Shown here: in pieces, positions 9,479 to 30,600 of the stretch
How the letters are laid out: every line of letters starts with the position of its first letter
Position numbering within the stretch: the stretch's first letter is position 1
Assembly: GCA_001782825.1 (NCBI GenBank)
Contig: MFPS01000007.1
Coordinates: 148,487-212,486 of the forward strand
Direction: 5' to 3'
Length of the DNA: 64,000 bases
Origin: Candidatus Magasanikbacteria bacterium RIFCSPHIGHO2_01_FULL_33_34
GTDB lineage: Bacteria > Patescibacteriota > Patescibacteriia > Magasanikbacterales > UBA922
Program-made: the position numbers and the translations under genes
Notes under the pieces: generated by a model
Database searches by the model: none
Told to the model about the DNA's origin: nothing
What the model saw: only the letters and a program-made list of their open reading frames with translations

Positions 9479-9970
9479 ATGAAAACTCGTAAAGAATCAA
9501 GTCTTGATAAATTCAGTCGTACTATGGACATGCACCATTGGGTTGGTGAAGAAGAGTGTCCAGTGTGCAAATACGACAAAAAAGGTACAACTCACCCAAT
9601 GACATGTAACGACTGTGGCATTCGTCGTACTGCCTGTGCTGAACAAAGTTGTTACCACTATTGGATCTATGACTGGCCAGATGGCACTCAAGAACTAATT
9701 CCACCATGCGGAAATAAACAACCAGACCCAAAAGTAGCAATGTTTGGCATTGTTCGAATCTGTGCCCATTGTAATCACTGTCTTGAAACTGACTACGAGG
9801 GAGGTACAGGTACCTGTCACTATCTAGCAATGGAACTAGCAAGAAAGCCACCCTCTAAACAACCTAGTAATCCTAACTACAGACGTGCCTTGGAGTTAAT
9901 AGCCGAAAGAACTATTCTTCACAAAAACGCTGGTACAAAAGAATATAAAGTTGTAATTCGAAAACTATAA
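9479..9970 (+). CDS. Cys-rich hypothetical protein (12 Cys; CPVC, CNDCG, CAHCNHC clusters), GC-elevated
   Basis: Track ORF 9419-9970; start at MKTRK (9479) has an AGGA ribosome-binding site 9 nt upstream; GC ~42% against a ~30% background. Confidence 0.5.
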   Translation: MKTRKESSLDKFSRTMDMHHWVGEEECPVCKYDKKGTTHPMTCNDCGIRRTACAEQSCYHYWIYDWPDGTQELIPPCGNKQPDPKVAMFGIVRICAHCNHCLETDYEGGTGTCHYLAMELARKPPSKQPSNPNYRRALELIAERTILHKNAGTKEYKVVIRKL

Positions 9971-10119
9971 TACAACCAAGGCACCTGCGAAGAATCTGTT
10001 CGCCTGCCTATTTTATTTCTGAACTATATTTGGAAATAAAATAAGGAGTATAATGCGAACAGTTTTTTTGTTTTTAAAATAAAACTATTAAAAACAAAAA
10101 ATCACCAAATATTTGATGA

Positions 10120-10162
10120 TTTTTTGTTTTTGCCTGTAGCTATTCAAAGCTACAGGCTTATT
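10120..10162. terminator. Bidirectional rho-independent terminator between convergent genes
   Basis: gcctgtagc-tattcaaa-gctacaggc with a U-run on both sides. Confidence 0.55.
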
Positions 10163-10184
10163 GGAATGAATATATTCCTCCTCA

Positions 10185-10586
10185 TTATTTATTGAAGTCT
10201 ACTACATGTTGATGTATGTCTTCTTCAGACTTTTTTTGAGAATTATCCTTATTATGTTTTCTTCGCTTCCCCTTGCCTTTTTCTAAACTAGGAAACATAC
10301 TATTTATCTTGGATTTAATCTCCTGTGCTTTATTACTCTCAACAAACACGTAAAAAATCTGAATATACTTATTACCCCTGACCTTTACCTCCAAACCAGA
10401 TCTAGTTTCATTGCAAATTACACTCCCCTGCGAAACTGATTTGATTGATGATATTATACCAATAGAAATTCCTTTGACACCATCAAGTGTCTTCAGAAAA
10501 TCTACCACTGGACCAGATGCATCAATGATGGTAGTATGTCTACCCCTGAACTTATCACCACTACGATGATTCTTCTTACTCATCAA
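10185..10586 (-). CDS. Hypothetical 133-aa protein, GC-elevated islet
   Basis: ORF track; 9 nt downstream of the 10596-11126 gene (2-gene operon); no motif recognised. Confidence 0.45.
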   Translation of the reverse strand: MMSKKNHRSGDKFRGRHTTIIDASGPVVDFLKTLDGVKGISIGIISSIKSVSQGSVICNETRSGLEVKVRGNKYIQIFYVFVESNKAQEIKSKINSMFPSLEKGKGKRRKHNKDNSQKKSEEDIHQHVVDFNK

Positions 10587-10595
10587 ACTACCCCT

Positions 10596-11126
10596 CTAGC
10601 GACGACTCAGTACTTCGTCCCAAGTAGACTCGTAGTAAGGACCCATGACATTTGATTCCCAAACAAGACCATACTTAGTCCAAAACTGAATTGATTCACT
10701 AAACTCATCCCTGTTATACCCAGGACGACTAAATGCAAAATTGGTAGGCTCTTTAGGAGTATTAGCTCCTACGTATCCAGTAATCAAAAACCACTGAATT
10801 CCACGTTTTACAGCAACTAGAGTAAACAATGAACTATTAAGCTTCACACCACCAACAACCACGTGTGTTGGCTTATCACGACCAATACGAACAGCAAAGG
10901 TATGTGGTCGATCTGGAAACCTTTCTACAAGTGAACTTTGGCCAATAATCTGACCAAAATTAATCTCACCTGCGTGAAATATTTTACCGTAAGGTAGCCT
11001 TGTTCTTTTAGCTGCCTCTTCGAGCAACCCTCCTGCTTCTGGATGAGCACGAAGATGTTCTACAGTATCATCATTAAGATGAATAATATTACCACACAAT
11101 GTTCTGAGTTCACGTGGAACAAGCAT
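10596..11126 (-). CDS. Hypothetical 176-aa protein, GC-elevated islet
   Basis: ORF track; strong GGAGG ribosome-binding site 7 nt before ATG; GC ~42%; no motif recognised. Confidence 0.5.
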   Translation of the reverse strand: MLVPRELRTLCGNIIHLNDDTVEHLRAHPEAGGLLEEAAKRTRLPYGKIFHAGEINFGQIIGQSSLVERFPDRPHTFAVRIGRDKPTHVVVGGVKLNSSLFTLVAVKRGIQWFLITGYVGANTPKEPTNFAFSRPGYNRDEFSESIQFWTKYGLVWESNVMGPYYESTWDEVLSRR

Positions 11127-11309
11127 GATATGCCTCCATTGAGCTTTTGAATGTCTATGGTTTTCGCCTTACTTATACTGACAAGGCTCATCAGTCCGTA
11201 ACTCTTACGGAGAACCATAAACTTTTAATTTTCTCAATATAAAAATATACTACAAAACTATACTTTTGTCAATAATGCCCAAAAACAAAAAGAGCGACCA
11301 ATTGCTCTT

Positions 11310-11666
11310 TTACTCCTTTCTATTTTTTGGAAAATCTTTTTCTGCTTGTTCAATAATAACTACAAATATTTCAAATTGTGCTTTAGTAAGTCCCTTTGCT
11401 TGAAGTATTTCCATATATGCTTCCATAAATTCAATAATTTTTTGCCTCAAAATTCTAAAATCTTTTTTTTCAACAATCTCACGAACTGAGATAAACCGTT
11501 TCTGAATACTTTCAATATCCTCCAATGATACTTTTTCACCATGCACCGAATCAACTATTGCTAATTCCAAAAGACTCTTAAACTCTACCAAACTTCCAAA
11601 CTTATTTAAAAGATCAACTATCTCACCTCTCAAAATATTCAAATTATGCGCAGAATTTTTTTCCAT
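11310..11666 (-). CDS. Hypothetical ~118-aa helical protein
   Basis: ORF track (start alternatives at 11687 or 11666); followed by hairpin terminator aagagcgaccaattgctctt. Confidence 0.4.
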   Translation of the reverse strand: MEKNSAHNLNILRGEIVDLLNKFGSLVEFKSLLELAIVDSVHGEKVSLEDIESIQKRFISVREIVEKKDFRILRQKIIEFMEAYMEILQAKGLTKAQFEIFVVIIEQAEKDFPKNRKE

Positions 11667-11723
11667 AAACACCCCTCCTTTACCCAAAGATATACTACAA
11701 TATCACCGCTGTCAACCAAAACA

Positions 11724-11748
11724 AAAGAGCGACTTCAAGTCGCTCATC
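11724..11748 (-). terminator. Rho-independent terminator of the 11752-12360 gene
   Basis: gagcgacttgaagtcgctc + TTTTGTTTT on minus strand. Confidence 0.5.
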
Positions 11749-11751
11749 CCA

Positions 11752-12360
11752 TTATTTGTCCCCATTTCTTTTGAATGGTATTATTTCTGCCAATTTTTTA
11801 TCTGAATCTATTTCTTTTTTTATTTCTACATCTCTTGAAAAAATTATTTTCAATTCAGTAGTATCAATTTCTGCAGAATCAACCGGATATTTGTGTTGCC
11901 TACTACCACATCCATAACCAGGTGTAGTCACCCAAACATCACTATGCTGATGAAAAGATCTTATAAAAATATGCTCCAAAACTAATAAATTTCGCATTCC
12001 TGAACGAATATCAATAGCTGGGTCACTATGATGTTCTTTGAAAAAATCGACCATATTAGAAACATCATCTCTATGAACAATATACAAATATTGAACCTTT
12101 TTAGTACCTTCTGAAAAATCAACTACCATCAAAACACAATACTTCAAATGATCCAGGCTAGAAACATTATATGTAGTCTCACAATGCCACTGAGGTATTT
12201 CTTTTTTTATTGGTTTTATTGATTTAGTAGGATATTTGTCATTTCCCTTTATTATTGGTTTAATGAAATCTTCAATAAACCACCCAAATACTACAATCCC
12301 CAACACCATCAAAGGTATCAAAAAATAATCAGCATAATTCATAATACCCTCCTTATACAC
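11752..12360 (-). CDS. N-terminally membrane-anchored hypothetical protein (several His/Asp clusters)
   Basis: ORF track; TM FLIPLMVLGIVVFGWFI; no confident family. Confidence 0.45.
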   Translation of the reverse strand: MYKEGIMNYADYFLIPLMVLGIVVFGWFIEDFIKPIIKGNDKYPTKSIKPIKKEIPQWHCETTYNVSSLDHLKYCVLMVVDFSEGTKKVQYLYIVHRDDVSNMVDFFKEHHSDPAIDIRSGMRNLLVLEHIFIRSFHQHSDVWVTTPGYGCGSRQHKYPVDSAEIDTTELKIIFSRDVEIKKEIDSDKKLAEIIPFKRNGDK

Positions 12361-17145: not shown

Positions 17146-17601
17146 CTATTTGTTTATCATTCCCTTAACTTGTTCCAATTGTTCTGCTGTAAGATTTGAT
17201 ACGCTATCTAAACCAAAACCTTCTCGAAGTATATTGCCTAGATTCATATTTCCAGGTGCAGTACCAAAAATATTCTGTATTTGAGCTGTATATTGTTCTA
17301 TAATTGCTGGTAAATATATAATAGCCAAAACTATTGGGGCTACAATGAGTAATAATTTAACATAATTCACAAACACCATCATATTCAACCTACTTTTTAT
17401 TTTTTTATTCTGCGCATAAATAGCTTTTGACCATTTGATATTTTTTTCAATCAGCTCTTCAAGCGAATCCTTTTTTGCGATCACAACTGGCTCATTTTTT
17501 TTATCAGTCTTTTTTTTCTTTTTATTTTCTTCTGGTGGAATATTTATCTCAATATCCATTGGTTCAGGCAAACCCTCATCAGATATTTTTTCATCTATCA
17601 T
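17146..17601 (-). CDS. Hypothetical protein with one TM helix
   Basis: ORF track; K-rich N-terminus, TM LLLIVAPIVLAIIYLPAII. Confidence 0.4.
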   Translation of the reverse strand: MIDEKISDEGLPEPMDIEINIPPEENKKKKKTDKKNEPVVIAKKDSLEELIEKNIKWSKAIYAQNKKIKSRLNMMVFVNYVKLLLIVAPIVLAIIYLPAIIEQYTAQIQNIFGTAPGNMNLGNILREGFGLDSVSNLTAEQLEQVKGMINK

Positions 17602-17616: not shown

Positions 17617-18078
17617 TTACTTATTTTTTCCACTTCCTAATGATTTTATTTCTGTACTAAATTTATCAACATCCTGAAATGACCTGTAAATAGAAGCAAA
17701 CCTAATATAAGCAATTTTATCAAACTTCTTCAAATGCTTCATAACAATCTCTCCAATTTCTTCACTAGTTATCTCGCGTTTTTTCTTCTTTTGTAAATCT
17801 CTTTCAATAGTTGATATTAACTTATCAAACTTTTCTTCAGTATATGGCCTTTTGGCAAGAGACTGTAAAATACCTTTACTAATTTTCTTTCTATCATATG
17901 ACTCTCTATTTCCATTTCGTTTTACTATCACTATATCCAAAAGCTCCATTTCCTCAACAGTTGAAAATCTATAATTACATTTCTCACACTCTCGCCTCCG
18001 TCTAATCGCCACCCCATCTTGAGCAAGTCTAGAATCAATCACTTTTGTATTTTTTGAATTACAAGTAGGACAATACAT
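17617..18078 (-). CDS. nrdR: Transcriptional repressor NrdR (zinc ribbon + ATP-cone)
   Basis: MYCPTCNSKNTKVIDSR…CEKCNYRFSTVE… then ATP-cone. Confidence 0.85.
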   Translation of the reverse strand: MYCPTCNSKNTKVIDSRLAQDGVAIRRRRECEKCNYRFSTVEEMELLDIVIVKRNGNRESYDRKKISKGILQSLAKRPYTEEKFDKLISTIERDLQKKKKREITSEEIGEIVMKHLKKFDKIAYIRFASIYRSFQDVDKFSTEIKSLGSGKNK

Positions 18079-18100
18079 ATTTATATAATTTCATGTTAAG

Positions 18101-18262
18101 TTGTAAGAATTGAAAACGTTATTTATAATTAAGCATTATTTCCAATTATTTGTTTTTACGGATTTGAGGCCCCAACAGGCATCACCCTCGGAGCCGAAGC
18201 GAGAATGAGTAAAAATAAATAATTGGAAAAAATGCGGTCATGATTGAAAGTATAAACAATAC
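18101..18262 (+). repeat. Nested palindromic intergenic element, copy R3 (subfamily A) with outer flanks; inner insert 18133-18232, core 18160-18208 in plus orientation
   Basis: Core GGATTTGAGGCCCCAACAGGCATCACCCTCGGAGCCGAAGCGAGAATGA. The outer 35+33-nt flanks recur contiguously, without the 100-nt insert, at 23945-24010. Confidence 0.8.
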
Positions 18263-18362
18263 TACTATATATTACAGTTAAGCTATTTTAACATTTTATA
18301 AATAAAAATAAAAGACCATAAAAGTCTCTTATTTAATTTGTTTTAAATTATATAAACAATAA

Positions 18363-19595
18363 TTATAATCCCATTTTCTTTCTGATAAATGCTGGTATTT
18401 CCAAATCATCTTGATCAATATCCTCATCTTGTTTTTTTTCTTGCTGTCTACTTTCAATAATATCATCATGAATTATTTCCAATGGTTTTTTTTCAAAAGC
18501 ATCAATAAAATCATCTTCATCTTCTTTTTCTACAACCTTTACATTATTTTTCTTGGTAAAAATACTTGATGGATAAAAAGATTTCTTATTATTATATGGA
18601 GTATTAATATCAATATTGTCCGGCATAGTAGCTTTTCTTTCTCTGTCTTCAAAACCAGTCGCTATCACTGTTACCCGAACATCATCACCCAAACTCTCAT
18701 CTATAACTGTTCCAAAAATTACCCTTACATTTTTATCAGTATTCTCAGTGATAATTTCAGCCGCATCAGACACTTCCTGCATACCCAAATTTGAACCACC
18801 AGATATAGTAAATAATATCCCCTTGGCGCCTTCAATTGATAATTCCAAAAGTGGACTTGATATAGCAGACTTCGCTGCGTCAATTGCTCTATTCTCTCCA
18901 GTACCATGACCAATACCCATCAAAGCTGAACCAGTATCAGACATAATAGATTTAACATCCGCAAAATCAACATTGATCAAACCTGGTACAGTTATCAATT
19001 CAGAAATTCCTTGAACACCTTGCCTCAATACATCATCAACAATCTTGAAAGCTTCAAGCAAAGAAGTTTTCTTGTCAATTATTTGTAACACTCTATCATT
19101 TGGAATAGTAATAATTGTATCAACTTTTCTGGCCAACTCTTCATAAGCTCGATCAGAAATCGCTTTTCTTTGTGGACCTTCAAATCCAAATGGTTTTGTA
19201 ACTACAGCTACAGTCAATGCTCCGACTTCTCGTGCAATTTCAGCAATTACCGGACTAGCCCCAGAACCAGTACCACCACCCAAACCACAAGTAATAAAAA
19301 CCATATTTGAATCTTTTAATGATTCACGAATTTCATTTCTAGATTCTTCAGCACTTCTCTTGCCCATCTCTGGATCCATACCGGCACCAAGACCACGAGT
19401 AACTGTTTTACCAATATGAAGCTTACTTTCAGCACTATTGTGATGCAAAGCTTGTACATCTGTATTCATAGCAACAAAATCTACTCCACGTATATTGGTT
19501 TTTACCATTCTATCAACCGCAGAACCACCTGATCCCCCAACCCCAACAACTTTAATTTTTGCAAATGTCTCAATATCTGGTTTTATTTGTGGCAT
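18363..19595 (-). CDS. ftsZ: Cell division GTPase FtsZ
   Basis: Tubulin signature GGGTGSG (…CGLGGGTGSGASPVIAEI…), full length, acidic C-tail. Confidence 0.95.
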   Translation of the reverse strand: MPQIKPDIETFAKIKVVGVGGSGGSAVDRMVKTNIRGVDFVAMNTDVQALHHNSAESKLHIGKTVTRGLGAGMDPEMGKRSAEESRNEIRESLKDSNMVFITCGLGGGTGSGASPVIAEIAREVGALTVAVVTKPFGFEGPQRKAISDRAYEELARKVDTIITIPNDRVLQIIDKKTSLLEAFKIVDDVLRQGVQGISELITVPGLINVDFADVKSIMSDTGSALMGIGHGTGENRAIDAAKSAISSPLLELSIEGAKGILFTISGGSNLGMQEVSDAAEIITENTDKNVRVIFGTVIDESLGDDVRVTVIATGFEDRERKATMPDNIDINTPYNNKKSFYPSSIFTKKNNVKVVEKEDEDDFIDAFEKKPLEIIHDDIIESRQQEKKQDEDIDQDDLEIPAFIRKKMGL

Positions 19596-19797
19596 ATATT
19601 ATTGATCTAAAATTTGAGTCAATGAAGTATGTATTGAACAAATTTAGTGTTCAAATTTATCTAATTTAAGGTAAAAAACTTCATATCCTTAGTTTATAAC
19701 TAACAAACATTACTGTCAAGAAGAAATATATAGTAACTATGTTAATAAATAAAAAAAGTCCACTTAGACTTTAATAAAAAAATAATTAATAAACAAA

Positions 19798-21057
19798 TTA
19801 AGGGATCAGCCACTTCCCTACTTTTCTAAAAATTAACCAAATTTTGTTGGTCACACCTGATACAATTGACTTTCTTGAATATGACTTATAATTAACATTG
19901 CTACCCCATTTTACAAGACCAACCGCTCCAGCAAAAGTAAGTTCATTTGATTTGGGGGTTATGCTTACCACATCAATCGGATAACCAATAGAAACCGGCA
20001 ATCTAAGCGTACCCCTACCAATATCAACCAAACCTTTTATATTAGCTCCACCACCTGTCAAAATTGCACCGGCTGGCAAAAGACCACTCCGCCCTATGGA
20101 GTGTAATTCACTATCTATCTTTTCTAAAATTTCTACAACTCTAGCATTGATTATTTGAGAAACAAGATACAAAGATACATCTTCACTTTCTCCACTACTA
20201 TTTGTAATTGTTATTTTATCACGTTTATTTATTAATTTTGGATTACAATTTCCATACTTAACTTTTATTTTTTCTGCCATATCAATAGATATGCGCAAAC
20301 CCAAGGACAAATCATGAGTAATATGCTCTGATCCAATTGGTAAAATAGAAGTATGCATTATATCCCCCTCCTCATATACAATAATACTAGTTGTCGAACC
20401 ACCAATACTTGCAACCACGACTCCTAAATCTCTCTGTCTCTTGGTTGTAACAACCTCTCCAACAGCAACTATTGTCAAAACTACATCGTCTATATTTATG
20501 CCAGCGCGATATATAGTCCTATTAACATTTTTTAATTGTGATGAAAGACCATGAATAATTTGAGTATTTACCTCAAGTCGCATACCAGTCATACCAACCG
20601 GATCCTTAATCCCAGACTGACCATCTACAACAAAATTTCGCGGAATGACATGCATTACTTCATAATTTAATGGCGGAGCTACAATTTGGGCAGATTCAAT
20701 TACCCTTAGCATATCATCAGAAGAAATTTCCCCATCAGTTTTTGATACAGAAATCACTCCTCTACTTTCTTGAGATTTCATATCTACACCACCAATACCA
20801 ACCCACGAATGTTCAATATGTAGGCCAATCAATTTTTGAATTTGTTCTAATGCATGAGAAACTGATGAAATAGCCTCTTCTATGCTACTTATAGCCCCTC
20901 TATATATTCCAGTCGCAGGCACCTCTACAGCTCCTATGATTTGTAATTCTTGATTACCTTTTGTATCACTTGAACACTCACCAACTACAACTCTAATAGA
21001 AGTTGATCCAATATCAATACCTGTAATTAATTCACTTTTTCTTTTCCTATTAATCAT
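19798..21057 (-). CDS. ftsA: Cell division protein FtsA (actin-like ATPase)
   Basis: GIDIGSTSIRVVVGE… and C-terminal actin-fold motifs; immediately upstream of ftsZ. Confidence 0.9.
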   Translation of the reverse strand: MINRKRKSELITGIDIGSTSIRVVVGECSSDTKGNQELQIIGAVEVPATGIYRGAISSIEEAISSVSHALEQIQKLIGLHIEHSWVGIGGVDMKSQESRGVISVSKTDGEISSDDMLRVIESAQIVAPPLNYEVMHVIPRNFVVDGQSGIKDPVGMTGMRLEVNTQIIHGLSSQLKNVNRTIYRAGINIDDVVLTIVAVGEVVTTKRQRDLGVVVASIGGSTTSIIVYEEGDIMHTSILPIGSEHITHDLSLGLRISIDMAEKIKVKYGNCNPKLINKRDKITITNSSGESEDVSLYLVSQIINARVVEILEKIDSELHSIGRSGLLPAGAILTGGGANIKGLVDIGRGTLRLPVSIGYPIDVVSITPKSNELTFAGAVGLVKWGSNVNYKSYSRKSIVSGVTNKIWLIFRKVGKWLIP

Positions 21058-21422
21058 AAAATAAACAGATCAACTATATAAGGTAGAAAAATTATTATTC
21101 CAATAAATAATGCAAAAATTGAAGCTAAAAGCACCATTGATGCCATTATATCTTTTACCACAGCAACATGCAAATGCATTCTTGGCTTGACAATATCCAA
21201 AAATTTTTCAATCGCCGTATTCAATAGCTCTAACACCAAAACTAACAAAATTAATAATAAAACTACCACCATTTCCCCTCTTGTCAAATGTAATAATAAC
21301 ATTATTATAACAATAATAAATGATACAAAAATCTGAATTCTAAAATTCTGCTCATGAATATAAACATGTTTTATACCACTATATGCATCTTTTACACTTC
21401 TTAACATTCTTTTATAATCCAT
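21054..21422 (-). CDS. dgkA: Diacylglycerol / undecaprenol kinase (DgkA family)
   Basis: Three TM helices and the ELLNTAIE motif. Confidence 0.8.
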   Translation of the reverse strand: MDYKRMLRSVKDAYSGIKHVYIHEQNFRIQIFVSFIIVIIMLLLHLTRGEMVVVLLLILLVLVLELLNTAIEKFLDIVKPRMHLHVAVVKDIMASMVLLASIFALFIGIIIFLPYIVDLFIL

Positions 21423-21437
21423 AACAAAATAATTAAT

Positions 21438-21869
21438 CTACTTCATCAATAATTTTTTTATTAATTTTTCCTGTAAGCCAAACATATTTTCTTCTTGTTT
21501 TTTTGTTACATGGTCATATCCATTTAAATGCAAAATACCATGTACTAACACTCTAGTAAATTCTTCTTTATATGGAATAGATTGTTTTTTTGCTTGCCTT
21601 TCTACTTGATCAATACTTATAAATATATCCCCAAAATCCTTACTATCAAATACTTTGCCCTCTTGCATTGCAAAAGCTATAACATCAGTAGTCTTATTAA
21701 TACCTCTATAATCTCTATTAATCATTTTCATTCTACGATCTCCAACAAAATTTACACTAATTTCACTATTTATTTTATTTAATTGCCTAAACGTTGTTTC
21801 AATTACAAGTTCAACATACTTTTTAGACAATTTAATAGACCTAACTGACTGGTAGATATTATAAACCAT
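21438..21869 (-). CDS. ybeY: rRNA maturation endoribonuclease YbeY
   Basis: TDVIAFA… and HGILHLNGYDH zinc-binding motif. Confidence 0.85.
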   Translation of the reverse strand: MVYNIYQSVRSIKLSKKYVELVIETTFRQLNKINSEISVNFVGDRRMKMINRDYRGINKTTDVIAFAMQEGKVFDSKDFGDIFISIDQVERQAKKQSIPYKEEFTRVLVHGILHLNGYDHVTKKQEENMFGLQEKLIKKLLMK

Positions 21870-21880
21870 AAATTTATTAA

Positions 21881-22975
21881 TTAAGGTAAAGTTCCAGTAG
21901 TAGAAACTTGGGGCAATTCTTTTTGTCCAGGCAAATCAACAAATACTGCGCTCGGGCGGAAACTCTGATACATCAATTGCATTACATGTCTATATGGCAC
22001 ATCTACTGCATTTCCAGAAGCTTGATATATCATCACAAATACTGAATTTTCATTAGTAAAATAAGCAGTCAAACTATCATTTCTCTTATAACCACTAACT
22101 ACAAATCTATTATTAAATGATGACAAATCAGAAAAACTCTGCCCTTCTATATTCTTGGCAAACCAACTAATAAAATTCTCTTCTGGCATTTTTTTAAATG
22201 ATCTAATCTCAATAAAATCCCCTGTGATTGAACTAAAAATTACATGGTTATTTTCCGTATCAACCCCTGCTACATCCCACACAGTTGGATAATATACCCG
22301 ATACTGCCAGTTTGGATTGATATATTCCCTGACTAAACCAGAATCAATAATTTTAACTGGTGCAAATCCTTTTGGATTATACAAATTAAAAACCTCTTGT
22401 CCATCATAATATCCATCTTTGTCACTATCCCAAATTCCACTATCAGTCCCAAATATTTCTTCTTCTTGATCTGTCAGTGAATCAATATCAATATCAGCGC
22501 TATCTCTCAATAAAATATTTGGAAATACAATCGTATTTTGAAAATCTTTAATTTCTGGTATTGTAACTTCTTCAACAGGTTCTGGAATTTCAACAATTTC
22601 TGGCTCTTTTACAACTGGTTTAGGTACTTCAACCTTTTTTTCTGGTGCTGGTGGCACTACTTTCACAACCTTATTCTCACTATTATCAGACACTTGCCTA
22701 AAATAATAAAAAGAAACACCACCAATAAATAAACATAATATAATTACAGAAATAATTATAATTTTCTTTTTTGAAATAATTGGCAAAGATGTATTTTTAT
22801 TTTTTATTTTCAAATTATTTTGTTTTGTATTTGTAGATATTTTTTTATTTTGTTCATGATAAATAAGTGGATCTTTGCCACCATAAAAAATATCTGGTAT
22901 TACATTAACCTTAATATTTAATTTGTCTTCATCTTTTTTTTTGTCTTTTTTTTTATTATTTTTATTCCAAAACAT
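21881..22975 (-). CDS. Type II (N-in) single-pass membrane protein with Pro-rich linker and TSP3-like Ca-binding motif in the ectodomain
   Basis: K-rich N-terminus, TM IIISVIILCLFIGGVSFYYF, PPAPEKKVEVPKPVVKEPE linker, DSDKDGYYDGQEVFNLYNP motif. Confidence 0.5.
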   Translation of the reverse strand: MFWNKNNKKKDKKKDEDKLNIKVNVIPDIFYGGKDPLIYHEQNKKISTNTKQNNLKIKNKNTSLPIISKKKIIIISVIILCLFIGGVSFYYFRQVSDNSENKVVKVVPPAPEKKVEVPKPVVKEPEIVEIPEPVEEVTIPEIKDFQNTIVFPNILLRDSADIDIDSLTDQEEEIFGTDSGIWDSDKDGYYDGQEVFNLYNPKGFAPVKIIDSGLVREYINPNWQYRVYYPTVWDVAGVDTENNHVIFSSITGDFIEIRSFKKMPEENFISWFAKNIEGQSFSDLSSFNNRFVVSGYKRNDSLTAYFTNENSVFVMIYQASGNAVDVPYRHVMQLMYQSFRPSAVFVDLPGQKELPQVSTTGTLP

Positions 22976-23053
22976 ACATAAATGACTATAGACAATATTA
23001 AATATAATTTACACTACTCATAAATTCTTAAAATAGATTTTACCTTAGGTATA

Positions 23054-23920
23054 TTACTGACCCAAATCAAATATTCTTCCTGGACCTATTGGACTATACC
23101 CATTTTTTACTTCCGCGCCATCTGGAAAACCATCGCCATCGGTATCTGATTTGAGAGGATTACTTTTCCAAACCAAAACTTCGTCACCATCTCCCAAGCC
23201 ATCGTGATCACTATCCCAATTATCAGGATTCAAACCTATTTCCAATTCAATATCATCACTCAAATTATCAGAATCAGTATCAACTGGTTCACCAAATAAT
23301 ACTTCATCTTCCATTATCCTATCCTCTATTCCATCTTGTCCACTGTCTATCATTGAGTCATTAGGATCAACTATATCATCCATAAATATAGCCTCATCAT
23401 TTATATCAGTTACTTCCATTTTTTCATCTTTTGTATCGACTGAATCAAAATCACTTACTTCATCAACTAACGGCGCTGGTGTATCACCTTTGACAAACAA
23501 AGAATAAACCAACCAACTTCCTCCACCTAATATTGCAAACCCAACCAAAATAATAAAAAAAATCATCAGATTTTTTGCAAGCCCCGGACCTTTTATTTTA
23601 TTTAAATCTTCTTTACTTCCTGGCATTATATGTAATTTTGGCTCTTTCGCAAAAATATCCTCACCAAGTGGTGGATTAGTAATTATAGCCCCACTAGTAG
23701 ATTGAGGAATATTTTGTTTAGTTTGTAATTTTCCAACACCTACAGCTGTTTGTATAGGCATAGACGTTGATTTTGGTGATGGAATAGAACTTAATAAATC
23801 AGAAGAATTATCTTTAGCCACTGGAATATCCTCATCAGTACCAGCAAAAATATCTTCAGCTTTACCAACTGGTAAATTAGAAGGTATTTGATTATTGTTT
23901 ATTGGTTGATCATCAAACAT
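23054..23920 (-). CDS. Single-pass membrane protein with acidic ectodomain and C-terminal TSP3-like repeats ending NGYSPIGPG
   Basis: TM LMIFFIILVGFAILGGGSWLVY; DSDHDGLGDGDE…SDTDGDGFPDGAEVKNGYSPIGPGRIFDLGQ. Confidence 0.5.
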   Translation of the reverse strand: MFDDQPINNNQIPSNLPVGKAEDIFAGTDEDIPVAKDNSSDLLSSIPSPKSTSMPIQTAVGVGKLQTKQNIPQSTSGAIITNPPLGEDIFAKEPKLHIMPGSKEDLNKIKGPGLAKNLMIFFIILVGFAILGGGSWLVYSLFVKGDTPAPLVDEVSDFDSVDTKDEKMEVTDINDEAIFMDDIVDPNDSMIDSGQDGIEDRIMEDEVLFGEPVDTDSDNLSDDIELEIGLNPDNWDSDHDGLGDGDEVLVWKSNPLKSDTDGDGFPDGAEVKNGYSPIGPGRIFDLGQ

Positions 23921-23944
23921 ATTTCAAAATTTTAATTTACAATC

Positions 23945-24010
23945 TTAATTGTAAGAATTTAAAACATCATTTATAATTAATGCGATCGTGATTGAAAGTA
24001 TAAACAATGC
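23945..24010. repeat. Apparent empty-site paralogue of the R3 flanks (outer repeat without the inner insert and core)
   Basis: TTGTAAGAATTtAAAACaTcATTTATAATTAA|TGCGaTCgTGATTGAAAGTATAAACAATgCTA, ~90% identical to 18101-18132 plus 18233-18262. Confidence 0.6.
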
Positions 24011-24074
24011 TATTTTATCTTACAAATTAATTAACACTATTCATACACTATTATATAAAATTATTAACAATATT

Positions 24075-24638
24075 TCAAATCTTTCCTGAACCTAAAGGGT
24101 TATATCCATTAGTAATTTCATAACCATCCGAAAAGCCATCCCCATCTGTATCAGATTTAGTCGGGTCAGTTTTATATTCTTCCACTTCTAATTTATCCGA
24201 TATACCATCCCAATCAGTATCAAATTCTGTATTACTTATACCTAATCTTTCTTCTTCAATATCCAAAACACCATCATTATCCAAATCATCATCTTCCAAT
24301 CTCAAAGAGGTAACTCCTATATTTTGTTTTTGTACTTTTTCAATTGGCTTTTTAACTTCCACTTCTACGCTCGTATCCTCTGTCTCACTTATTTTTTTAA
24401 TATCTTTTTTTACAAAAATATTAGTAAAAAAAATTAAATATACTAATATACTTATCAAAATAATGATACCACTAATAATCAAAATCATTTTAAATTTTGA
24501 TTTTCTTTGTGGATAGTCAAGTTCATTGCTATATACATTTTGATCCACTATTTTATTGTCATCTTGATATTCATTCATCTTATATTTAATTAAATTATTA
24601 TAAATATTATGGTTCAATATATGGCGGATCAACCACAT
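24075..24638 (-). CDS. Single-pass membrane protein with TSP3-like Ca-binding repeats ending NGYNPLGSG
   Basis: TM MILIISGIIILISILVYLIFF; DDDLDNDGVLDIEEE…TDWDGISD…SDTDGDGFSDGYEITNGYNPLGSGKI; start overlaps the giant gene's 3' end by 32 nt. Confidence 0.5.
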   Translation of the reverse strand: MWLIRHILNHNIYNNLIKYKMNEYQDDNKIVDQNVYSNELDYPQRKSKFKMILIISGIIILISILVYLIFFTNIFVKKDIKKISETEDTSVEVEVKKPIEKVQKQNIGVTSLRLEDDDLDNDGVLDIEEERLGISNTEFDTDWDGISDKLEVEEYKTDPTKSDTDGDGFSDGYEITNGYNPLGSGKI

Positions 24639-27600
24639 CTATTACACAACGACAGTCTACATTACAAGTTTCAAGCGCATAACAACCAGCATTTGATCCA
24701 TCACATTCTTCACCTGGTGGTTGTATAATTCCATCACCACAATAAGCTGGTGGAAGTATAATCAAAGGCCCACATTCACAATTTGAATAACACTCTTCAA
24801 AGAAACCACAATTTAATGAACTACCATCACATTCCTCATTTGCTTCTCTACTACCATTACCACACACTGCATAGCCATCACAAGTATTAAGACAATTATT
24901 TTGACCTGGAATTGCTGGATCACATATCTCACTTCCATCAATCCTACCATCACCACAAATAGACAATTCACCAATAACTCCACCCGTCTGAATCTGTTCA
25001 GCACTAGTAGCAATTCTATTTAACGGCAATATCTCATAATCACCAGAAGTTGCATCTCTATCTATATTAAACAAATGCCAATATCTCGCTGCAGGATTTG
25101 AACTCTTTAGAGCATCTTCTATAACATAAGTAATATCTGGTCTAAATACAGTCCGGAAAGATTCTGCTCCGGCTGGAGTTTCTCTATATTCATAAACATA
25201 AACTTCCAAATCACTATCATCAAAATATGCCATCGGTACCCCACCGGCCACACTTTGTGCTTCTACAAATACTGCATACGGCCCATAATTCAATAAAGAA
25301 TTTGGCGCAGTATTGAGTGGTATATTTATGGTCATTGATTGTATAAAAGTATCTTCACCCTCATTGATATCATGCATATAAAAACCTTCATTACCAAGCC
25401 CCAATGGCCAAACTGTACAACTTCTGGTTGTATTTGCAAAATTATAGTCAGGAATCCAATAACCACCAACCAGTTCTGTACCGATACAGATCTGTTTTGG
25501 TGTTGCCATATTTCTTTGCATAAACCTATCAGTTCCACCCAAAGTATCATCAGCTGACAAAATACCTAAACCAAAATCTGTACCACCAAATTCTTGTGAT
25601 TCTTCTCTTGTCCATTTAAGCACAACCCTAATTTGTCCTTCTGGTAAAGCAGGAGAAACAATAAAATCATTCACAACAGTATTTAATTCATTATTAACAT
25701 CATAACTATATACAAATTCTGATTCTGGTGATGTTTCTAGACAATTTTCAGTTCCAGCTTGAGGTGTCAAACACATATAATAACTACCATTACAAGCATT
25801 GTCAGCGATAATGCCATTCAATATATCTGTTTCACCCCATGGATAAAATATATTACTAGGTACATACATAACATCAACCAAATCAGGTCCTGCATAAAAT
25901 TGCACTCTATTATTTACAAGAAGTGAACTACCACTATTAGTCAAAAAATATGGTCCATTAGGCTCTGTATAATCTCTAAAATAAAACTTTGCAAACAATC
26001 CATTAGGGTCTGTACCCCATTGCCCACCAGAATAATGCAAACTAATCATCGGATTTAATATTCTCAAACTAGGATCAATGCCACCGCTTGTTAGTCTCTT
26101 ACTTCCACACTGTATACAATTATTATATAAAAATCCACAACTATTTCTACACTCATAATTACCAGTCAAAGTAGTATAAGTCCCATTCTCTAAAGAATAA
26201 TTACCACTTCGTCTGCTACATTGATCTAATTCAAATGTGCCAGAATTTGTCACAATATAAGGATTTGGACAATTTGCACCAACACAATTAGGTCTAACAT
26301 ACTCACAAACCTCAGTTCTAGAACAAAAATTATCAACACAATACCCAGAATTACAATCTGTGTTAGCAGTACAATAACCAAGTGGTTGACAAAAACCTGC
26401 TGGGCTACAATAATTAGAATCACAATCAGCCACTTGAGTAGCAACAGTACACGGATCATTAATATTTCCACTACCACCATAATCTACCAATGAAATAACA
26501 TCAATATTCTCATTACCACAATAAGCATTTGGTTCAATATAAAGTACCTCTCTACAATCCCATGAACAAAAGTTACAGCCTTGGTTGTAACCAGGGACAC
26601 ACTGGACACCATTTATACCATCACCTCTATCACATACTTCACCAGCATCAATATTACTATTACCACAATTACCTAAATCAGGCGTAACATTATCTACAGG
26701 CGCAGAAGCTTCATTTCTACAATTATTTGCACAACCATCTCCGCTAATATTGTTACCATCATCACATTCTTCGGCTGAAGTACATACTCCTGCACTACAA
26801 TTATTTGAAAAACATTGACTATTATTTAAGCAGATTGCACCACTATTACCAGTATGCAAAATTCCATCACCACAACGAGGACCTAATTGTTTACAATTTG
26901 CTGAACAACTATTAGAAGGTAGAGCAAATGTTGGTGGTGTTAAATATGCACCATTGTTAGCTCCTATATCACAATATTCAACTGGTGAACAAACATTCAT
27001 AGCCAAACAATTTCTATTTGTTCCACAACTTGTAACACAAGCATTAGGATTACCGGTACAATTTACATTATTAAATGCGCAATAACTATTTACAACATTA
27101 TCACCACAAAAACTGGCACTAAAAGTACACATAGCCGAACAATTTCCAGGTGTACCATTTAATGCCCCATCATCACATTGTTCTAATCCATCTACCCTAC
27201 CATTACCACACAAAATATCAACATCACAGCCACTATCCTGCCAATTACACGAACTATTACAAACTCTAGCTAAAGTACCCGAAATAGGTACACCATTCAC
27301 ATCTACTGCACAAGCATTTAATGTGTCAACCAATTGGCCAGGAGGATCACACTGTTCAGTACCATTTACAATCCCATTACCACAAGAACCAGACAAAGGT
27401 GATTCTGTACTTCCAGACACACCACACATAGAACCAATCTGAAAATGACTAACATCTATAAATGAACCCAAATCAGACAATCCAAAATATTCTGGACGCC
27501 CATAAATCATATAATCATTTGCTACATCAGGTCTATACTCTAATACTGATGAAACTGCTGGACAAATAAATCTACTATTCACTTCATCCCAACAGGTCTG

Positions 27601-30600
27601 ACTATCTACAGTCACACATACCTCCCCAGCACCAGCACAATCAACATCTGTTGAACAGAGTTGTTCAACTCCATCAACCAGACTACCTGGAACATGACAA
27701 TAATTACAAGTTGTCCAACGATTTATCGGATCAATTCCTACCCCACCACCAATTTCTTGACCCAAATTACCCCAAGATGGCCACAATGAACGAGTTCTAC
27801 CTGGTATATATGTACCAGCACGCAACTGTGGCGCTTCTGAACCAAAATCAACATATCCATTCATGGCTACTTGCGCATTGCGAATAGTAATGAATCTTGA
27901 CCAATCTCTTCTCATCTTTGTCTGATCTGCAGAACACATACCAGTTCCACCACCCAAAGGATTACCCAATAAATCCCTACAATCAAAATCAGTACTACAA
28001 GAAATATCTACCGCATTTTCACAAAACAAATCATTTGAAATATTAGAATTAAATTCCAATGAATTAATCAATTGTTCAAAAACATCATAAGTATTTTGTT
28101 GTGCATTTTCATTTATACTAAATACAAATATATTATTGTATAGCTCACCTAATCCAGGTCTATTAGCTGCCGATATATAATAATTACTACCATTAGTCAT
28201 AGCTTCATAACCATCAACTGAAATTTGATTGAATCCAGTTGGTTCACCAATTTTTCTCCTAAACCATTGAGTTAATGTTTCCTTTTCTAAAATAGTTGGT
28301 GCACTGTCTGTTAGAAAAACTTGCAAACCAATCACATCATCATTTACAGAATTGAAGAATAAAAAGCGTTTCAAATTTTCAGCATCTGGTAAACCAGAAG
28401 CTATATTAAATACAAATGGTCTTAAGTATGGCAAATCGTCTACTACATTACCAACCAAACCACTGTCGGCACAATAACTCATTTCAAAATTAAAGAAATC
28501 TCCATTTACATTACTCGTTCCAAGCATAGTTGAACCATCAAATATTCCAGCAGTCGTACCATCATTATTTCCAACTTCATCTTCAAATGGGAAATAATCT
28601 CTTGGTGGCCAAGGGTTTTCACAAAAAAATGAAACTAATTCGGCTGTGCCTGTAAAGGTTTGTCCAACTTGACTATCTACCAAATCTGTATCCACCAAAA
28701 CAGTTGCATGCGCACCAGCAGTTCTAGAACCCTCAAGTTCTGTAGAAGCTATAATTCTATTTGGGATATTTCCTGTAGTTATTATATCTGGATCAATTGT
28801 AAATAAAGTATCAGCTGATGGAGTCCAAAACCATTCCCAATCATATACACCCGGAATAGGACTAATCAATTGTCCACTGGTTGATTCAACAACAGCTGTA
28901 AAATTATAATCAGTATTTGGTGTATCATAAAAATAACCAGCAGGAATAACATTAATACTATTAATCTTACAAACATCATCTCCAGTTCTGAACATAAAAC
29001 TATCGTCTATTTCTCCAGTTCTAGCCACAACATTATTTAATGGACTTCTAATACCTACACCACGAACATCTTTTATACCATTATTACCCCCTTTTAATAG
29101 CACTGTATAATAAGCATTTTGTTCAAGTAAATTATTGAGATAAAAATCAACTCTACTCTCTATTACATTGCCATCAACATCAGTGGTTTTATTTACCAAT
29201 GGTAAACCACTAAATAAATTCTGTCTGCACCAAGAACCAACAGTAGCGACATTTGTAATAGAAGCTTTAGCCTGACCACCAGTAGCCCAAGTAAAAAAGC
29301 GTTTTATTGTGTTCCAAATATTTATAAAAATAGAATCACTTTTTTTATTATTATTTTCATATGCCAAAGTCCCATCAATATCAGAAGTAATATCTACACA
29401 ATCAACTGGTGGGGCTACCTCATAACCTCTTGCTATCCAAACATTATTCAACAAAGTTGTTTCATTGATATTACCATCAAAAGTCACTGATACTAATGAA
29501 TTCAAACAAACCACATTTGGATCCAATATACCAGCACCATCATAAGGATATTCATCTACTCGTTCTGGTCTATCATAACAACAAGAATTTGATCCTACAC
29601 CCAAAGTATTATTAACATTACCGCGACAATCATTATGATTATTAGCCAAATCTGGTTGTTCATACTCAGTAAAACCACAAGCCAAAGCATAATCTGCCTC
29701 ATCAGATAATTGAGTTTGTTGCGCAGGAATTAAATCTGCTAATTCACCACGAACTCGCACAATATTTGACTCTATCAATGTACTCATCAATTGTGTTCCA
29801 GGATCCAGCAATAACCTAGTGCCAACTGATCTTACAGATTGAACAGGATTTTGACCTGGTATGGCAAAACCAGCCATTTCTGCAACGGTATATTCACACC
29901 AACCATACTCTCCATCACCAACAACACCATCTCCACAAAGTGATGGAATAGTATATCTATCAATTGAAGACCCGTGTAAAGTACAATCTGGTTTACAACC
30001 TTCTTGTGTATTAGGATCACAATAAAATGGAGCTGGAATAACTGAATCACAAATATTTTGTAATAAACAATTTGAAGAACAAAGATTATCAAAATCAGCT
30101 ACAAATATTCCTGGAATTACAGTCCCATTATCACTAGCTGGGACTCCAAAATCTCCATCAAATAAATGAAATTGTCCACCAATTATTTCACACTCTTCTC
30201 CAAATTCTAATTCTCCATTTCCACATTGGCTAACCGCTTGTCTACATTCATCAGTATCCTGCCAAGCTGATCTATCATCACACCATTCTTGTACCAAACC
30301 AGTTCCAATATGTAAACAATTACTAGTACAAGTCCTACCAAGCACCTCTCCATTCAATCCTGGTTCACAATCCTCACCAACTGTAACTTCTGAACCATCA
30401 CAAATAGGTTGACCAGTTGAAGCTTCCTCAATATCTCTAGTTGAACCAATATGTAAACAAGTATTAGAACATCCAACTCGTGTTGATGATGTTAATCCTG
30501 GATCACATTCTTCACCCAAATTTGTTTCTAAAATACTATTTCCACAAGTTGCATTAGTGTTTCCCGGTCGCAAACAATTGATAGAACAAGAGTCACCAGC

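What the first reader, a model, noticed from the sequence alone, without database searches (positions are those of the whole stretch)
21881..24638. Three consecutive bitopic proteins with thrombospondin-type-3-like Ca-binding repeats and a conserved C-terminal NGY-P-G-G motif, translationally coupled to the giant gene
The 187-, 288- and 364-aa proteins each have a cytoplasmic N-terminus, one TM helix and an acidic ectodomain. The ectodomains contain D-x-D-x-D-G-x-x-D-G-x-E motifs (SDTDGDGFSDGYEITNGYNPLGSGKI; SDTDGDGFPDGAEVKNGYSPIGPGRIF; DSDKDGYYDGQEVFNLYNPKGFAP). The first gene's start overlaps the last 32 nt of the giant ORF. These could be calcium-dependent accessory, anchor or chaperone components of the same surface apparatus. 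The shared (T)DxDGDG…NGYxPxGxG ending looks like a family-specific C-terminal signature.
Basis: seen in the sequence. Interest (0 to 1): 0.55.

Follow-up and report, generated by a model that had tools for sequence, protein, structure and literature searches.

The report
Calcium-repeat membrane trio beside giant gene
Three neighbouring genes of an uncultured ultra-small (CPR, Magasanikbacteria) bacterium encode single-pass membrane proteins that display calcium-binding repeats outside the cell; in about 140 related genomes they always sit between a giant surface-protein gene and the cell-division genes, so they are a real, lineage-wide module whose function is still unknown.

Summary
The three minus-strand ORFs are real. 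Each encodes an N-in/C-out single-pass membrane protein with an acidic ectodomain carrying bacterial TSP3 (EF-hand-like) DxDxDGxxDxxE loops: 3, 3 and 2 loops. The window holds 7 loop matches against 0.02 expected. Pfam TSP3_bac passes its cutoff for the 187-aa and 288-aa proteins but not for the 364-aa one, whose repeats show only by alignment.

The shared ending is a conserved cap, G-Y-N/S-P-x-G-x-G-K-L/I. It is absent from 9,007 other ORFs of related loci. In the third protein it is internal and leads into a PsbP/Mog1-like domain.

The 32-nt overlap with the giant gene is a longest-ORF artefact. Homologs start at the internal Met (ATG 24578), 28 nt after the giant's stop.

The order giant (VirB2-like N-terminus) → (small) → mid → large → ybeY → dagK → ftsA → ftsZ holds in about 140 Magasanikbacteria and related CPR loci.

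Best reading (about 0.45): calcium-stabilised membrane tethers working with the giant surface protein. A division or envelope role is not excluded. New variant of a known kind; moderate interest.

The parts
24075..24578 (-). 'small' protein, 167 aa from the likely start (MNEYQDD...). Short cytoplasmic N-terminus, TM helix (nt 24411-24488), acidic spacer, three TSP3/EF-like loops plus cap NGYNPLGSGKI (nt 24078-24293), which ends the protein.
   Evidence: TSP3_bac 42.6 bits; start; 49% identity to the mid module over 70 aa
24579..24638 (-). Probably spurious 20-codon N-terminal extension of the longest ORF. It creates the apparent 32-nt overlap with the giant gene (giant stop codon at 24607-24609).
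   Evidence: the extension is absent from L001 and L008, whose starts align with window M21 and have in-frame stops upstream
23054..23920 (-). 'mid' protein, 288 aa. Conserved cytoplasmic motif MFDDQ...NLPxG(E/K)xEDIF (nt 23843-23920), disordered cytoplasmic region, TM (nt 23492-23569), acidic spacer, three TSP3/EF-like loops (residues 214-225, 236-247, 259-270) plus cap NGYSPIGPGRIF (module nt 23066-23287).
   Evidence: 28.5 bits; AF2 pLDDT 94-98 for residues 200-285
21881..22975 (-). 'large' protein, 364 aa. Cytoplasmic motif VNVIPDIFYGGKDPLIY (nt 22856-22909; P27, F30, G32, P36 invariant), TM (nt 22700-22762), Pro-rich spacer, two TSP3/EF-like loops (residues 161-172, 183-194) plus internal cap variant NLYNPKGFAPVKIID (nt 22358-22501), then a PsbP/Mog1-like alpha/beta domain (about residues 207-350, nt 21926-22357).
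   Evidence: AF2 pLDDT >90 for residues 150-350; Foldseek CyanoP/PsbP; 777 clusters at E<=1e-30; PsbP 6/54 and TSP3_bac 14/54 members, weak
24607..35106 (-). Giant 3,499-aa surface protein directly upstream. Signal peptide plus VirB2-like two-helix hairpin (T4SS_pilin) at the N-terminus, Big_5, and Cys-rich acidic repeats. An orthologous core is conserved across the loci.
35112..37151 (-). Second VirB2-like (T4SS_pilin + Big_5) protein, 679 aa, directly upstream of the giant. Together the two form a two-gene pilin-like array.
   Evidence: similar pairs in L088, L091, L124
18363..21869 (-). Conserved downstream partners ybeY (21438-21869), dagK (21054-21422), ftsA (19798-21057) and ftsZ (18363-19595). 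The gap from 'large' to ybeY is only 11 nt.

Best explanation
The three genes encode a paralogous set of type-II (N-in/C-out) single-pass membrane proteins. Each holds a small calcium-binding module on a flexible acidic or Pro/Thr-rich stalk outside the cell. The module has two or three bacterial TSP3 / EF-hand-like loops, closed by a beta-hairpin cap G-Y-N/S-P-x-G-x-G-K-L. The third protein adds a PsbP/Mog1-like protein-binding domain.

The most likely role is as calcium-stabilised, membrane-proximal tethers or organisers for the giant VirB2-like-anchored surface protein encoded just upstream. The mid and large proteins would also contact a cytoplasmic partner through conserved N-terminal short motifs.

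Shown: the gene models, topology signals, loop and cap anatomy, confident predicted folds of the modules, the conserved motifs, and the lineage-wide gene order.

Inferred: calcium binding (by homology to TSP3_bac and to the calcium-responsive Bap EF-hands), physical interaction with the giant protein (synteny only), and any cytoplasmic docking.
For: Anatomy. The loops are far above chance. AF2 gives high-confidence compact modules.

Closest solved relative of the repeats: EF-hands 2-3 of S. aureus Bap, chains 7c7u/7c7r. Their calcium response was shown by mutagenesis (PMC7785521).

PsbP-like fold of the large C-domain: Foldseek CyanoP 2.9e-4, PsbP 8.2e-4; Pfam PsbP hits in 6/54 family members.

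Synteny: in all 129 loci where it can be judged, a mid-like gene lies directly upstream of 'large'. 97/97 loci with enough flank have large same-strand ORFs within about 2.5 kb upstream of the module. The giant is itself a conserved ortholog. In the L110/L157/L160 lineage the mid-large pair remains next to the giant, while clpP-secDF-pilD replace ybeY-dagK before ftsA.

The TSP3x3+cap module is the constant element even where the 'small' slot changes its anchor, from a TM helix to a signal peptide plus helical domain.
Against: There is no direct evidence of any contact with the giant protein. The whole block, from lepB-hisS-yqeY through nrdR, is syntenic, so linkage may be partly inherited rather than functional. 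The module is nearly as tightly linked to ybeY-dagK-ftsA-ftsZ (122/128 and 102/106 loci), and the gap from 'large' to ybeY is only 11 nt. The giant already has its own membrane anchor. Calcium binding is inferred only. The 364-aa protein fails the Pfam TSP3_bac threshold. The fold match to PsbP has modest TM-scores (0.43-0.49).
Confidence: 0.45

Rival explanations
1. The trio are division- or envelope-coupling proteins. They would be lineage-specific bitopic partners of FtsA/FtsZ, functionally analogous to FtsN, MapZ or FtsQ-L-B. Their cytoplasmic motifs would dock on the divisome and their calcium-binding ectodomains would engage the wall or S-layer. The giant gene would be a neighbour only.
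For: ybeY lies directly downstream in 122/128 loci and ftsA within 2.5 kb in 102/106. The gap to ybeY is 11 nt and dagK/ftsA overlap. Three consecutive N-in bitopic proteins upstream of ftsA-ftsZ recall the position of ftsQ (established knowledge). Mid and large carry conserved cytoplasmic N-terminal motifs. The large motif (I)H(V/T)(M/I)PxxF resembles the FtsA SHS2-domain hairpin LHV(I/L)PRxF: the regex occurs in 110/122 FtsA, 27/138 large and 4/8,440 other ORFs.
Against: There are no POTRA, coiled-coil, SPOR or other divisome domain hits. The MapZ and FliL NCBIfam hits are E about 0.01, far below cutoff, and fall on low-complexity or TM regions. In L110/L157/L160 the pair is separated from ftsA by about 6 kb and from ybeY entirely, yet stays with the giant. 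In Saccharibacteria (S. epibionticum ML1) ftsA-ftsZ-nrdR is preceded by map, not by such genes, so ftsAZ does not generally need them. The motif resemblance was noticed post hoc.
Confidence: 0.2
2. The trio are autonomous calcium-binding envelope proteins, for example cation-dependent spacers or anchors between the membrane and the wall or S-layer. They would have no specific partner among the neighbouring genes, and the gene order would reflect vertical inheritance of a frozen chromosomal block.
For: The entire region lepB-hisS-yqeY...nrdR-pyk is collinear in distant relatives. TSP3 repeats occur in many unrelated bacterial envelope proteins such as OmpA, YkuD and lectin fusions (Pfam columns). 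The stalk lengths (40-110 disordered residues) suit a spacer.
Against: Order is preserved at 30-45% protein identity in about 140 loci, with tiny intergenic gaps, in lineages that have otherwise rearranged flanks. The module is retained with the giant after a local rearrangement. Conserved cytoplasmic motifs argue for a specific intracellular partner rather than a passive spacer.
Confidence: 0.25
3. The finding is an artefact: chance Asp-rich low-complexity ORFs in AT-rich DNA.
For: The DNA is AT-rich (GC about 0.30-0.33), and the ectodomains are compositionally biased.
Against: There are hundreds of full-length homologs (297 and 114 hits; 777 clusters at E<=1e-30). Many columns are invariant. 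The loops are far above shuffles. AF2 modules are confident.
Confidence: 0.01

Closest known systems
Bacterial TSP3-repeat proteins (Pfam PF18884 TSP3_bac), e.g. Myxococcus CglD and MtsC/MtsD, and OmpA-TSP3 fusions
   Same: Tandem units of about 23 residues with a DxDxDGxxDxxE loop followed by xxGT(D/N)Pxxx. The location is extracellular and calcium binding is presumed. NCBIfam CglD and MtsD models align weakly over the repeats.
   Different: Here there are only 2-3 repeats, on a type-II TM anchor with a disordered stalk. They are closed by a specific cap (GYNPxGxGKL) and preceded by conserved cytoplasmic motifs. The genes are fixed next to a giant VirB2-like protein and ybeY-ftsAZ in CPR bacteria. 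There is no lipoprotein, OmpA or MYXO-CTERM context.
Staphylococcus aureus Bap region B, EF-hands 2-3 (PDB 7c7u / 7c7r)
   Same: This is the closest solved structure by sequence and by fold. It matches 42-46% identity over 43-47 columns at rmsd 1.0-1.9 A (phmmer E 7e-4). It has tandem DxDxDG loops whose calcium response was shown by mutagenesis (PMC7785521).
   Different: Bap is a 2,276-aa sortase-anchored biofilm protein in which calcium controls amyloid-like aggregation. Here the loops form the whole ectodomain of small membrane proteins. The match covers two loops only.
PsbP / CyanoP (Mog1/PsbP-like fold; also Tsi3 and DUF1795 Eag chaperones such as SciW)
   Same: The C-terminal domain of the 364-aa protein is predicted with pLDDT >90. 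It matches CyanoP 2lnj, PsbP 7pi0_P, BT_1490, Tsi3 and SciW. 6/54 family members weakly hit Pfam PsbP. This fold is generally a protein-binding module.
   Different: Sequence identity is 10-12% and TM-scores are below 0.5. There is no photosystem context. The domain is fused to TSP3 loops and a TM anchor, and the family has no Pfam model.
PilN-PilM and FtsN-FtsA type pairs (a bitopic protein whose short cytoplasmic N-terminal peptide docks on an actin-like ATPase)
   Same: N-in single-pass architecture with a conserved N-terminal linear motif, encoded beside an FtsA/PilM-like gene. This is an analogy from established knowledge; the window FtsA also hits PilM_2 weakly.
   Different: There is no sequence similarity to PilN (INLLP), PilO or FtsN. 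The ectodomains are unrelated. No interaction was tested.
VirB2-like pilin arrays of Patescibacteria (PMC12102498; essential pilins in S. epibionticum, PMC10633639)
   Same: The two genes upstream (679 aa and 3,499 aa) carry the PF18895 T4SS_pilin hairpin and lie in tandem, like the arrays described in those papers.
   Different: No virB4 or other T4SS gene was found in the window, though not every ORF was scanned. The pilin-like domain is fused to huge ectodomains. The first paper's text mentions no TSP3 or thrombospondin proteins, and the supplements of the second contain neither term.

Membership tests
Pfam PF18884 TSP3_bac (bacterial TSP3 repeat) | Whole-protein score at or above the gathering cutoff (25 bits) | tested here: met
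   The 187-aa protein scores 42.6 bits and the 288-aa protein 28.5 bits. NOT met for the 364-aa protein: it has no hit, and only 14/54 family members reach E<=0.01, best 0.0037.
Pfam PF18884 TSP3_bac (bacterial TSP3 repeat) | Tandem DxDxDGxxDxxE loops spaced about 22-23 residues apart | tested here: met
   Loops at residues 118/140/163 (187-aa protein), 214/236/259 (288-aa) and 161/183 (364-aa). The modal loop number per protein across the loci is 3, 3 and 2.
Pfam PF18884 TSP3_bac (bacterial TSP3 repeat) | Ca2+ binding by the loops | not testable with these tools
   Inferred from homology to Bap EF-hands 2-3 (PMC7785521).
Eukaryotic thrombospondin type 3 repeat (Pfam PF02412 TSP_3) | Match to the PF02412 model; disulfide-bonded Cys pairs within the repeats | tested here: not met
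   PF02412 is not listed at E<=1 for any of the three proteins. The repeat regions contain no cysteine (sequences). No thrombospondin or COMP structure appears among the Foldseek hits.
Canonical EF-hand (helix-loop-helix pair) | 12-residue loop with ligands at positions 1, 3, 5, 12 and Gly at position 6, flanked by two helices | tested here: inconclusive
   The loop consensus is met. AF2 shows a short helix after each loop but not a classic paired EF-hand. Troponin C scores only E about 0.8.
PsbP / Mog1-like fold (Pfam PF01789) | Alpha-beta-alpha sandwich that superposes on PsbP/CyanoP; sequence match to PF01789 | tested here: inconclusive
FtsQ/DivIB - FtsL - FtsB divisome trio | POTRA plus beta domain (FtsQ); leucine-zipper coiled coils (FtsL, FtsB) | tested here: not met
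   There are no POTRA, FtsQ, DivIC or FtsL hits in Pfam or NCBIfam at E<=1. AF2 shows no extracellular coiled coil.
Dockerin (Ca-dependent duplicated F-hand) | Match to the Pfam Dockerin_1 model; a cohesin partner | tested here: not met
   No dockerin family is listed at E<=1. No cohesin hit was found in the giant protein. The resemblance is only an analogy in mechanism.
Sortase / PEP-CTERM-type C-terminal sorting signal | Motif followed by a hydrophobic helix and a basic tail | tested here: not met
   The small protein ends at ...GSGKI and the mid protein 5 residues after the cap. No TM segment or basic tail follows.

The most novel reading that the evidence does not exclude
The module is a trans-envelope coupler specific to Magasanikbacteria-like CPR. 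The cytoplasmic N-terminal motifs of mid (MFDD...EDIF) and large (IHVMPxxF / VIPDIFYGG) dock on the divisome actin FtsA. The large motif mimics the conserved LHV(I/L)PRxF hairpin of the FtsA SHS2/1C domain. The calcium-loaded ectodomains hold the giant VirB2-like-anchored surface protein. The cell's main adhesin or pilus-like organelle would thereby be positioned or inherited relative to the division site.
Probability: 0.1. Interest if true: 0.75.

Novelty: new variant of a known kind. Interest (0 to 1): 0.45.

Why it matters
CPR/Patescibacteria are thought to live attached to host cells, and their envelope and attachment machinery is almost wholly uncharacterised. This module is conserved across a whole lineage: 777 clusters at 50% identity for the third protein alone. 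It has no Pfam family for its largest member. It sits in a fixed position between a giant pilin-like-anchored surface protein and the division genes.

If the trio proves to anchor or organise the giant protein, it would define the base of a new surface organelle. If it instead couples to FtsA, it would be a new kind of divisome accessory in bacteria where the usual ones were not found in this gene neighbourhood. Either way, the conserved cap and the cytoplasmic motifs give concrete handles for binding assays and structure prediction.

Tried and rejected
- The promoter and terminator scan of 18000-25500 was uninformative in this AT-rich DNA: 40 promoter-like sites against 43 expected. One 11/12 site lies in the small-mid gap, and there is no intergenic terminator.
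- The reverse test, from giant homologs to their neighbours, failed. A homolog search with the giant's conserved core (aa 1981-2640) was swamped by word-sharing candidates and returned only 3 short-contig proteins.
- I prepared 71 FtsA + linker + N-terminal-peptide chimeras to test docking by AF2. The second job went to the mid protein instead.
- Weak NCBIfam hits to MapZ, FliL and EbpS (E 0.01-0.5, far below cutoff) and a DotF/IcmG hit (E 0.025) fall on TM or low-complexity stretches. I rejected them as evidence.
- Literature searches found nothing on these proteins. The text of the Patescibacteria T4SS paper contains no mention of TSP3 or thrombospondin.
- I considered a sorting-signal reading of the C-terminal motif and rejected it, because no TM segment or basic tail follows.
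- I considered a dockerin reading; no model hit supports it.
Full report
**Checking the observation**

The region holds three consecutive minus-strand ORFs of 187, 288 and 364 aa. They lie at 24075-24638, 23054-23920 and 21881-22975, directly downstream of a 3,499-aa ORF at 24607-35106.

Each protein has one strongly hydrophobic segment, at residues 51-76, 118-143 and 72-92. The parts C-terminal to it are acidic: K+R versus D+E is 12/31, 8/44 and 23/42. The 288- and 364-aa proteins have basic residues just before the helix, which fits an N-in/C-out topology.

The quoted Asp-rich motifs are there. The core pattern D.[DN].[DN]G..D occurs 7 times in all six frames of the 64-kb window. Six of these are in the three genes. 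Block shuffles give 0.02 +/- 0.14. The pattern is also above residue shuffles of each ectodomain (P <= 0.003).

Pfam's bacterial TSP3 model (PF18884) passes its 25-bit cutoff for the 187-aa protein (42.6 bits) and the 288-aa protein (28.5 bits). The 364-aa protein gets no Pfam hit.

The two loops of the 364-aa protein are nevertheless homologous to the others. BLASTP against the 288-aa protein gives E 2e-6 over the loop region. D161/163/165/E172 and D183/185/187/D191/E194 are invariant in 54 orthologs. The 187- and 288-aa modules are clear paralogs, with 49% identity over 70 residues and E 5e-19.

**The claimed translational coupling does not hold**

The 32-nt overlap exists only if the first in-frame ATG (24638) is used. 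The closest orthologs start at MNEEQNN (L001) and MDQYQNN (L008). Both align with window M21 (MNEYQDD, ATG at 24578), and both have stop codons in frame just upstream. No ortholog called in five independent contigs overlaps its giant gene; the gaps are 5-114 nt. The likely product is therefore 167 aa, starting 28 nt after the giant's stop.

(i) Alignments of about 80 species-level orthologs show that the "ending" is a conserved cap on the last loop.
- Small: D[TS]DGDG[FY]xDGxE[IV]xxGY[ND]PLGxGKL, then the end of the protein.
- Mid: ...E[VI]KNGY[SN]PxGPGK[IL]FEPP.
- Large...DGQEVxNLYNPKGFAPVK[IL]IDSGLV, which runs on into a further domain.

The strict form G[YF][NSD]PxGxG is found in 48/82 small and 142/175 mid proteins. 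It occurs in 0 of 9,007 other ORFs (1.2 M residues) of the same loci. In the Pfam alignment the GYNPL part corresponds to the ordinary inter-loop "GTDPL" of TSP3_bac, so the cap is a terminal half-repeat. AF2 models it as a small hairpin.

(ii) AF2 with family alignments gives confident compact modules. Mid residues 200-285 have pLDDT 94-98, with a short helix after each loop. Large residues 150-350 have pLDDT above 90.

(iii) The C-terminal domain of the large protein has a PsbP/Mog1-like fold. Foldseek hits are CyanoP 2lnj (E 2.9e-4), BT_1490, PsbP 7pi0_P, Tsi3 and SciW. TM-scores are only 0.43-0.49. Six of 54 relatives weakly hit Pfam PsbP.

(iv) The nearest solved relative of the loops is the tandem EF-hand 2-3 of S. 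aureus Bap. Foldseek gives 42-46% identity at rmsd 1.0-1.9 A, and phmmer gives E 7e-4. Mutagenesis has shown that those Bap loops mediate a calcium response (PMC7785521). This is the basis for inferring calcium binding here; it was not tested.

- Mid: MFDDQ...NLPxGEPEDIF. In wider relatives this is MF[DE][DE]...[EQ]D[IM]F.
- Large: x[VT]IPDIFYGGxDPxIY, with P27, F30, G32 and P36 invariant. In wider relatives this is IH[VT]MP[EK]xF.

**Distribution and gene order**

The large family has 297 word-index hits, all 350-400 aa and all from Candidatus Magasanikbacteria or unnamed Patescibacteria. It comprises 777 clusters at 50% identity with E <= 1e-30 among 1.84 billion representatives. None carries a Pfam domain.

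A GTDB scan returned 80 species loci. Many are titled "uncultured Gammaproteobacteria", yet they carry this same CPR gene block, so those titles look like mislabels.

Full-length mid homologs are likewise Magasanikbacteria. A broader family of 200-310 aa shares the MFDD/EDIF motif, TM helix, three loops and cap.

I mapped genes with HMMs built from the loci. Among 138 non-redundant loci that contain a large homolog:
- a mid-like gene is directly upstream in 129/129 loci where this can be judged;
- two TSP3 genes are upstream in 91 loci and one in 33;
- ybeY is directly downstream in 122/128;
- ftsA lies within 2.5 kb in 102/106;
- an ORF of at least 700 aa on the same strand ends within 1.2 kb upstream in 92/97.

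The five exceptions, and the loci with shorter upstream ORFs, have split giants or an extra gene, with big ORFs within about 2.5 kb.

The giant itself is an orthologous family. Window residues 2000-2600 match the upstream ORFs of 80-91 loci. Its extreme C-terminus is not conserved.

More distant contigs show the same order: lepB-hisS-yqeY-giant-mid-large-ybeY-dagK-ftsA.

The "small" slot is the variable one. It may be absent, occupied by a second mid-like gene, or replaced by a signal-peptide protein with a helical domain that still ends in three loops plus the cap.

**What discriminates the readings**

Synteny supports a link to the giant gene and a link to ybeY-dagK-ftsA-ftsZ about equally well. 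Two facts tip the balance slightly toward the giant.
- In one lineage (L110, L157, L160) the pair giant-mid-large is intact, but it is followed by clpP, secD, secF and a prepilin-peptidase-like gene. ftsA lies 6 kb away or is not on the contig, and there is no ybeY.
- In the cultivated saccharibacterium S. epibionticum, ftsA-ftsZ-nrdR is preceded by map, not by such genes. FtsA/FtsZ therefore do not generally require this module.

Against the giant link: the large-ybeY gap is 11 nt, and the conserved cytoplasmic motifs point to an intracellular partner.

I also noticed, post hoc, that the large motif resembles the conserved hairpin of the FtsA SHS2/1C domain (window NYEVMHVIPRNFVVDGQSGIKDP). 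The regex H[VT][IMLV]P..[FY] matches 110/122 FtsA, 27/138 large and 4/8,440 other ORFs. This could be chance. I estimate the chance of such a match in some neighbouring gene at about 0.01. It could also hint at docking or strand mimicry. I could not test it.

**Mechanism proposed**

Shown:
- three N-in single-pass proteins;
- disordered stalks of about 40-110 residues;
- compact 2-3-loop modules with a conserved cap;
- a PsbP-like domain on the third protein;
- conserved cytoplasmic motifs on two of them;
- a fixed position between a conserved giant VirB2-like-anchored protein and ybeY-dagK-ftsAZ.

Inferred:
- The loops bind Ca2+ and fold or rigidify outside the cell.
- The modules, together with the PsbP-like domain, bind the giant protein's ectodomain or each other. 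They would form a membrane-proximal base that holds or organises it.
- The N-terminal motifs connect this base to a cytoplasmic partner.

I put this at about 0.45. A division or envelope-coupling role gets about 0.20, and autonomous calcium-binding envelope proteins about 0.25.

**Comparison with known systems**

The repeats belong to the bacterial TSP3 family (two of three proteins pass the model). They work like the EF-hand-type loops of Bap. They are not eukaryotic-type TSP3 repeats: there is no PF02412 hit and no cysteines.

The proteins are not FtsQ/L/B, dockerins or sortase substrates. The defining features were tested and are absent.

The upstream genes fit the VirB2-like pilin arrays described for Patescibacteria (PMC12102498; PMC10633639). 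No T4SS ATPase was found among the window ORFs I scanned. The text of PMC12102498 mentions no TSP3 or thrombospondin proteins, and the supplements of PMC10633639 contain neither term. I found no other literature on the trio.

**Verdict**

This is a real, strongly conserved, lineage-specific module. It is built from a known repeat type in a new architecture and a new genomic setting. The functional proposal is plausible but rests on synteny alone.

Noticed in passing
window 22856-22909 (large N-terminal motif) versus window 20560-20640 approx. (FtsA residues about 141-166): The cytoplasmic motif of the large family (VIPDIFYGGKDP; IHVMPEKF in wider relatives) resembles the conserved SHS2/1C hairpin of FtsA (MHVIPRNFVVDGQSGIKDP), which is encoded two genes downstream. 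The regex H[VT][IMLV]P..[FY] occurs in 110/122 FtsA, 27/138 large and 4/8,440 other ORFs. This was noticed post hoc and could be chance or a docking or mimicry motif.
   Followed up: partly
window 35112-37151 (-): A second protein with a VirB2-like T4SS_pilin hairpin plus Big_5 (679 aa) lies directly upstream of the giant. Together they form a two-gene pilin-like array. No T4SS ATPase was found among the window ORFs scanned.
   Followed up: partly
window 27187-31500 approx. (giant residues about 1200-2640): The giant has an orthologous core conserved in up to 91 related loci, including a ...VDGYEA...GTYxPGxTxSxWPSW...DPIN... segment. This core has no Pfam model. Its inserted domains (LVIVD, Laminin_G_3, VWA, TIG, BNR) differ between species.
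   Followed up: partly
L026, L049, L053, L074, L075, L082, L085 ('small' slot): In some lineages the first TSP3 gene is not bitopic. It is a signal-peptide protein with a conserved helical domain (FFRxLxQxxQLxFTFN...RLxFAxxNL) followed by the same three loops plus cap. L082 additionally carries an N-terminal IPT/lectin-like region.
   Followed up: no
window 17146-17601 (-): A 151-aa ORF with no Pfam hit lies between nrdR and pyruvate kinase. It has a hydrophobic segment near its C-terminal third. An unannotated ORF of 103-156 aa occupies the same position in related contigs.
   Followed up: no
window 42460-60283 (+): There are long plus-strand clusters for dNTP metabolism (dCMP deaminase, dUTPase, thyA, folA, tmk) and de novo pyrimidine synthesis (carA, carB, pyrB, a pyrC-like amidohydrolase, pyrD, a PRTase, pyrF). 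To my knowledge this is notable for a CPR genome, a group usually described as lacking nucleotide biosynthesis.
   Followed up: no
window 9277-12360: tRNA-Asp (9277-9351) is followed by several ORFs without Pfam hits: a Cys-rich 183-aa ORF and others on the minus strand. The strand-skew pattern changes around 6-10 kb. This could be a small inserted element.
   Followed up: no
L014, L015, L018, L020, L021 and others: Many GTDB representative MAGs that carry this typical CPR/Magasanikbacteria gene block are titled 'uncultured Gammaproteobacteria bacterium' in their records, which looks like mislabelling. One large-family homolog (P0091) is named 'von Willebrand factor type A' by its source, although its Pfam column is empty.
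   Followed up: no
window 24050-24078 (-): The best promoter-like site of the region (TTGAAA-17-TATAAT, 11/12) lies in the 154-nt gap between small and mid. The scan as a whole is not above chance in this AT-rich DNA.
   Followed up: no
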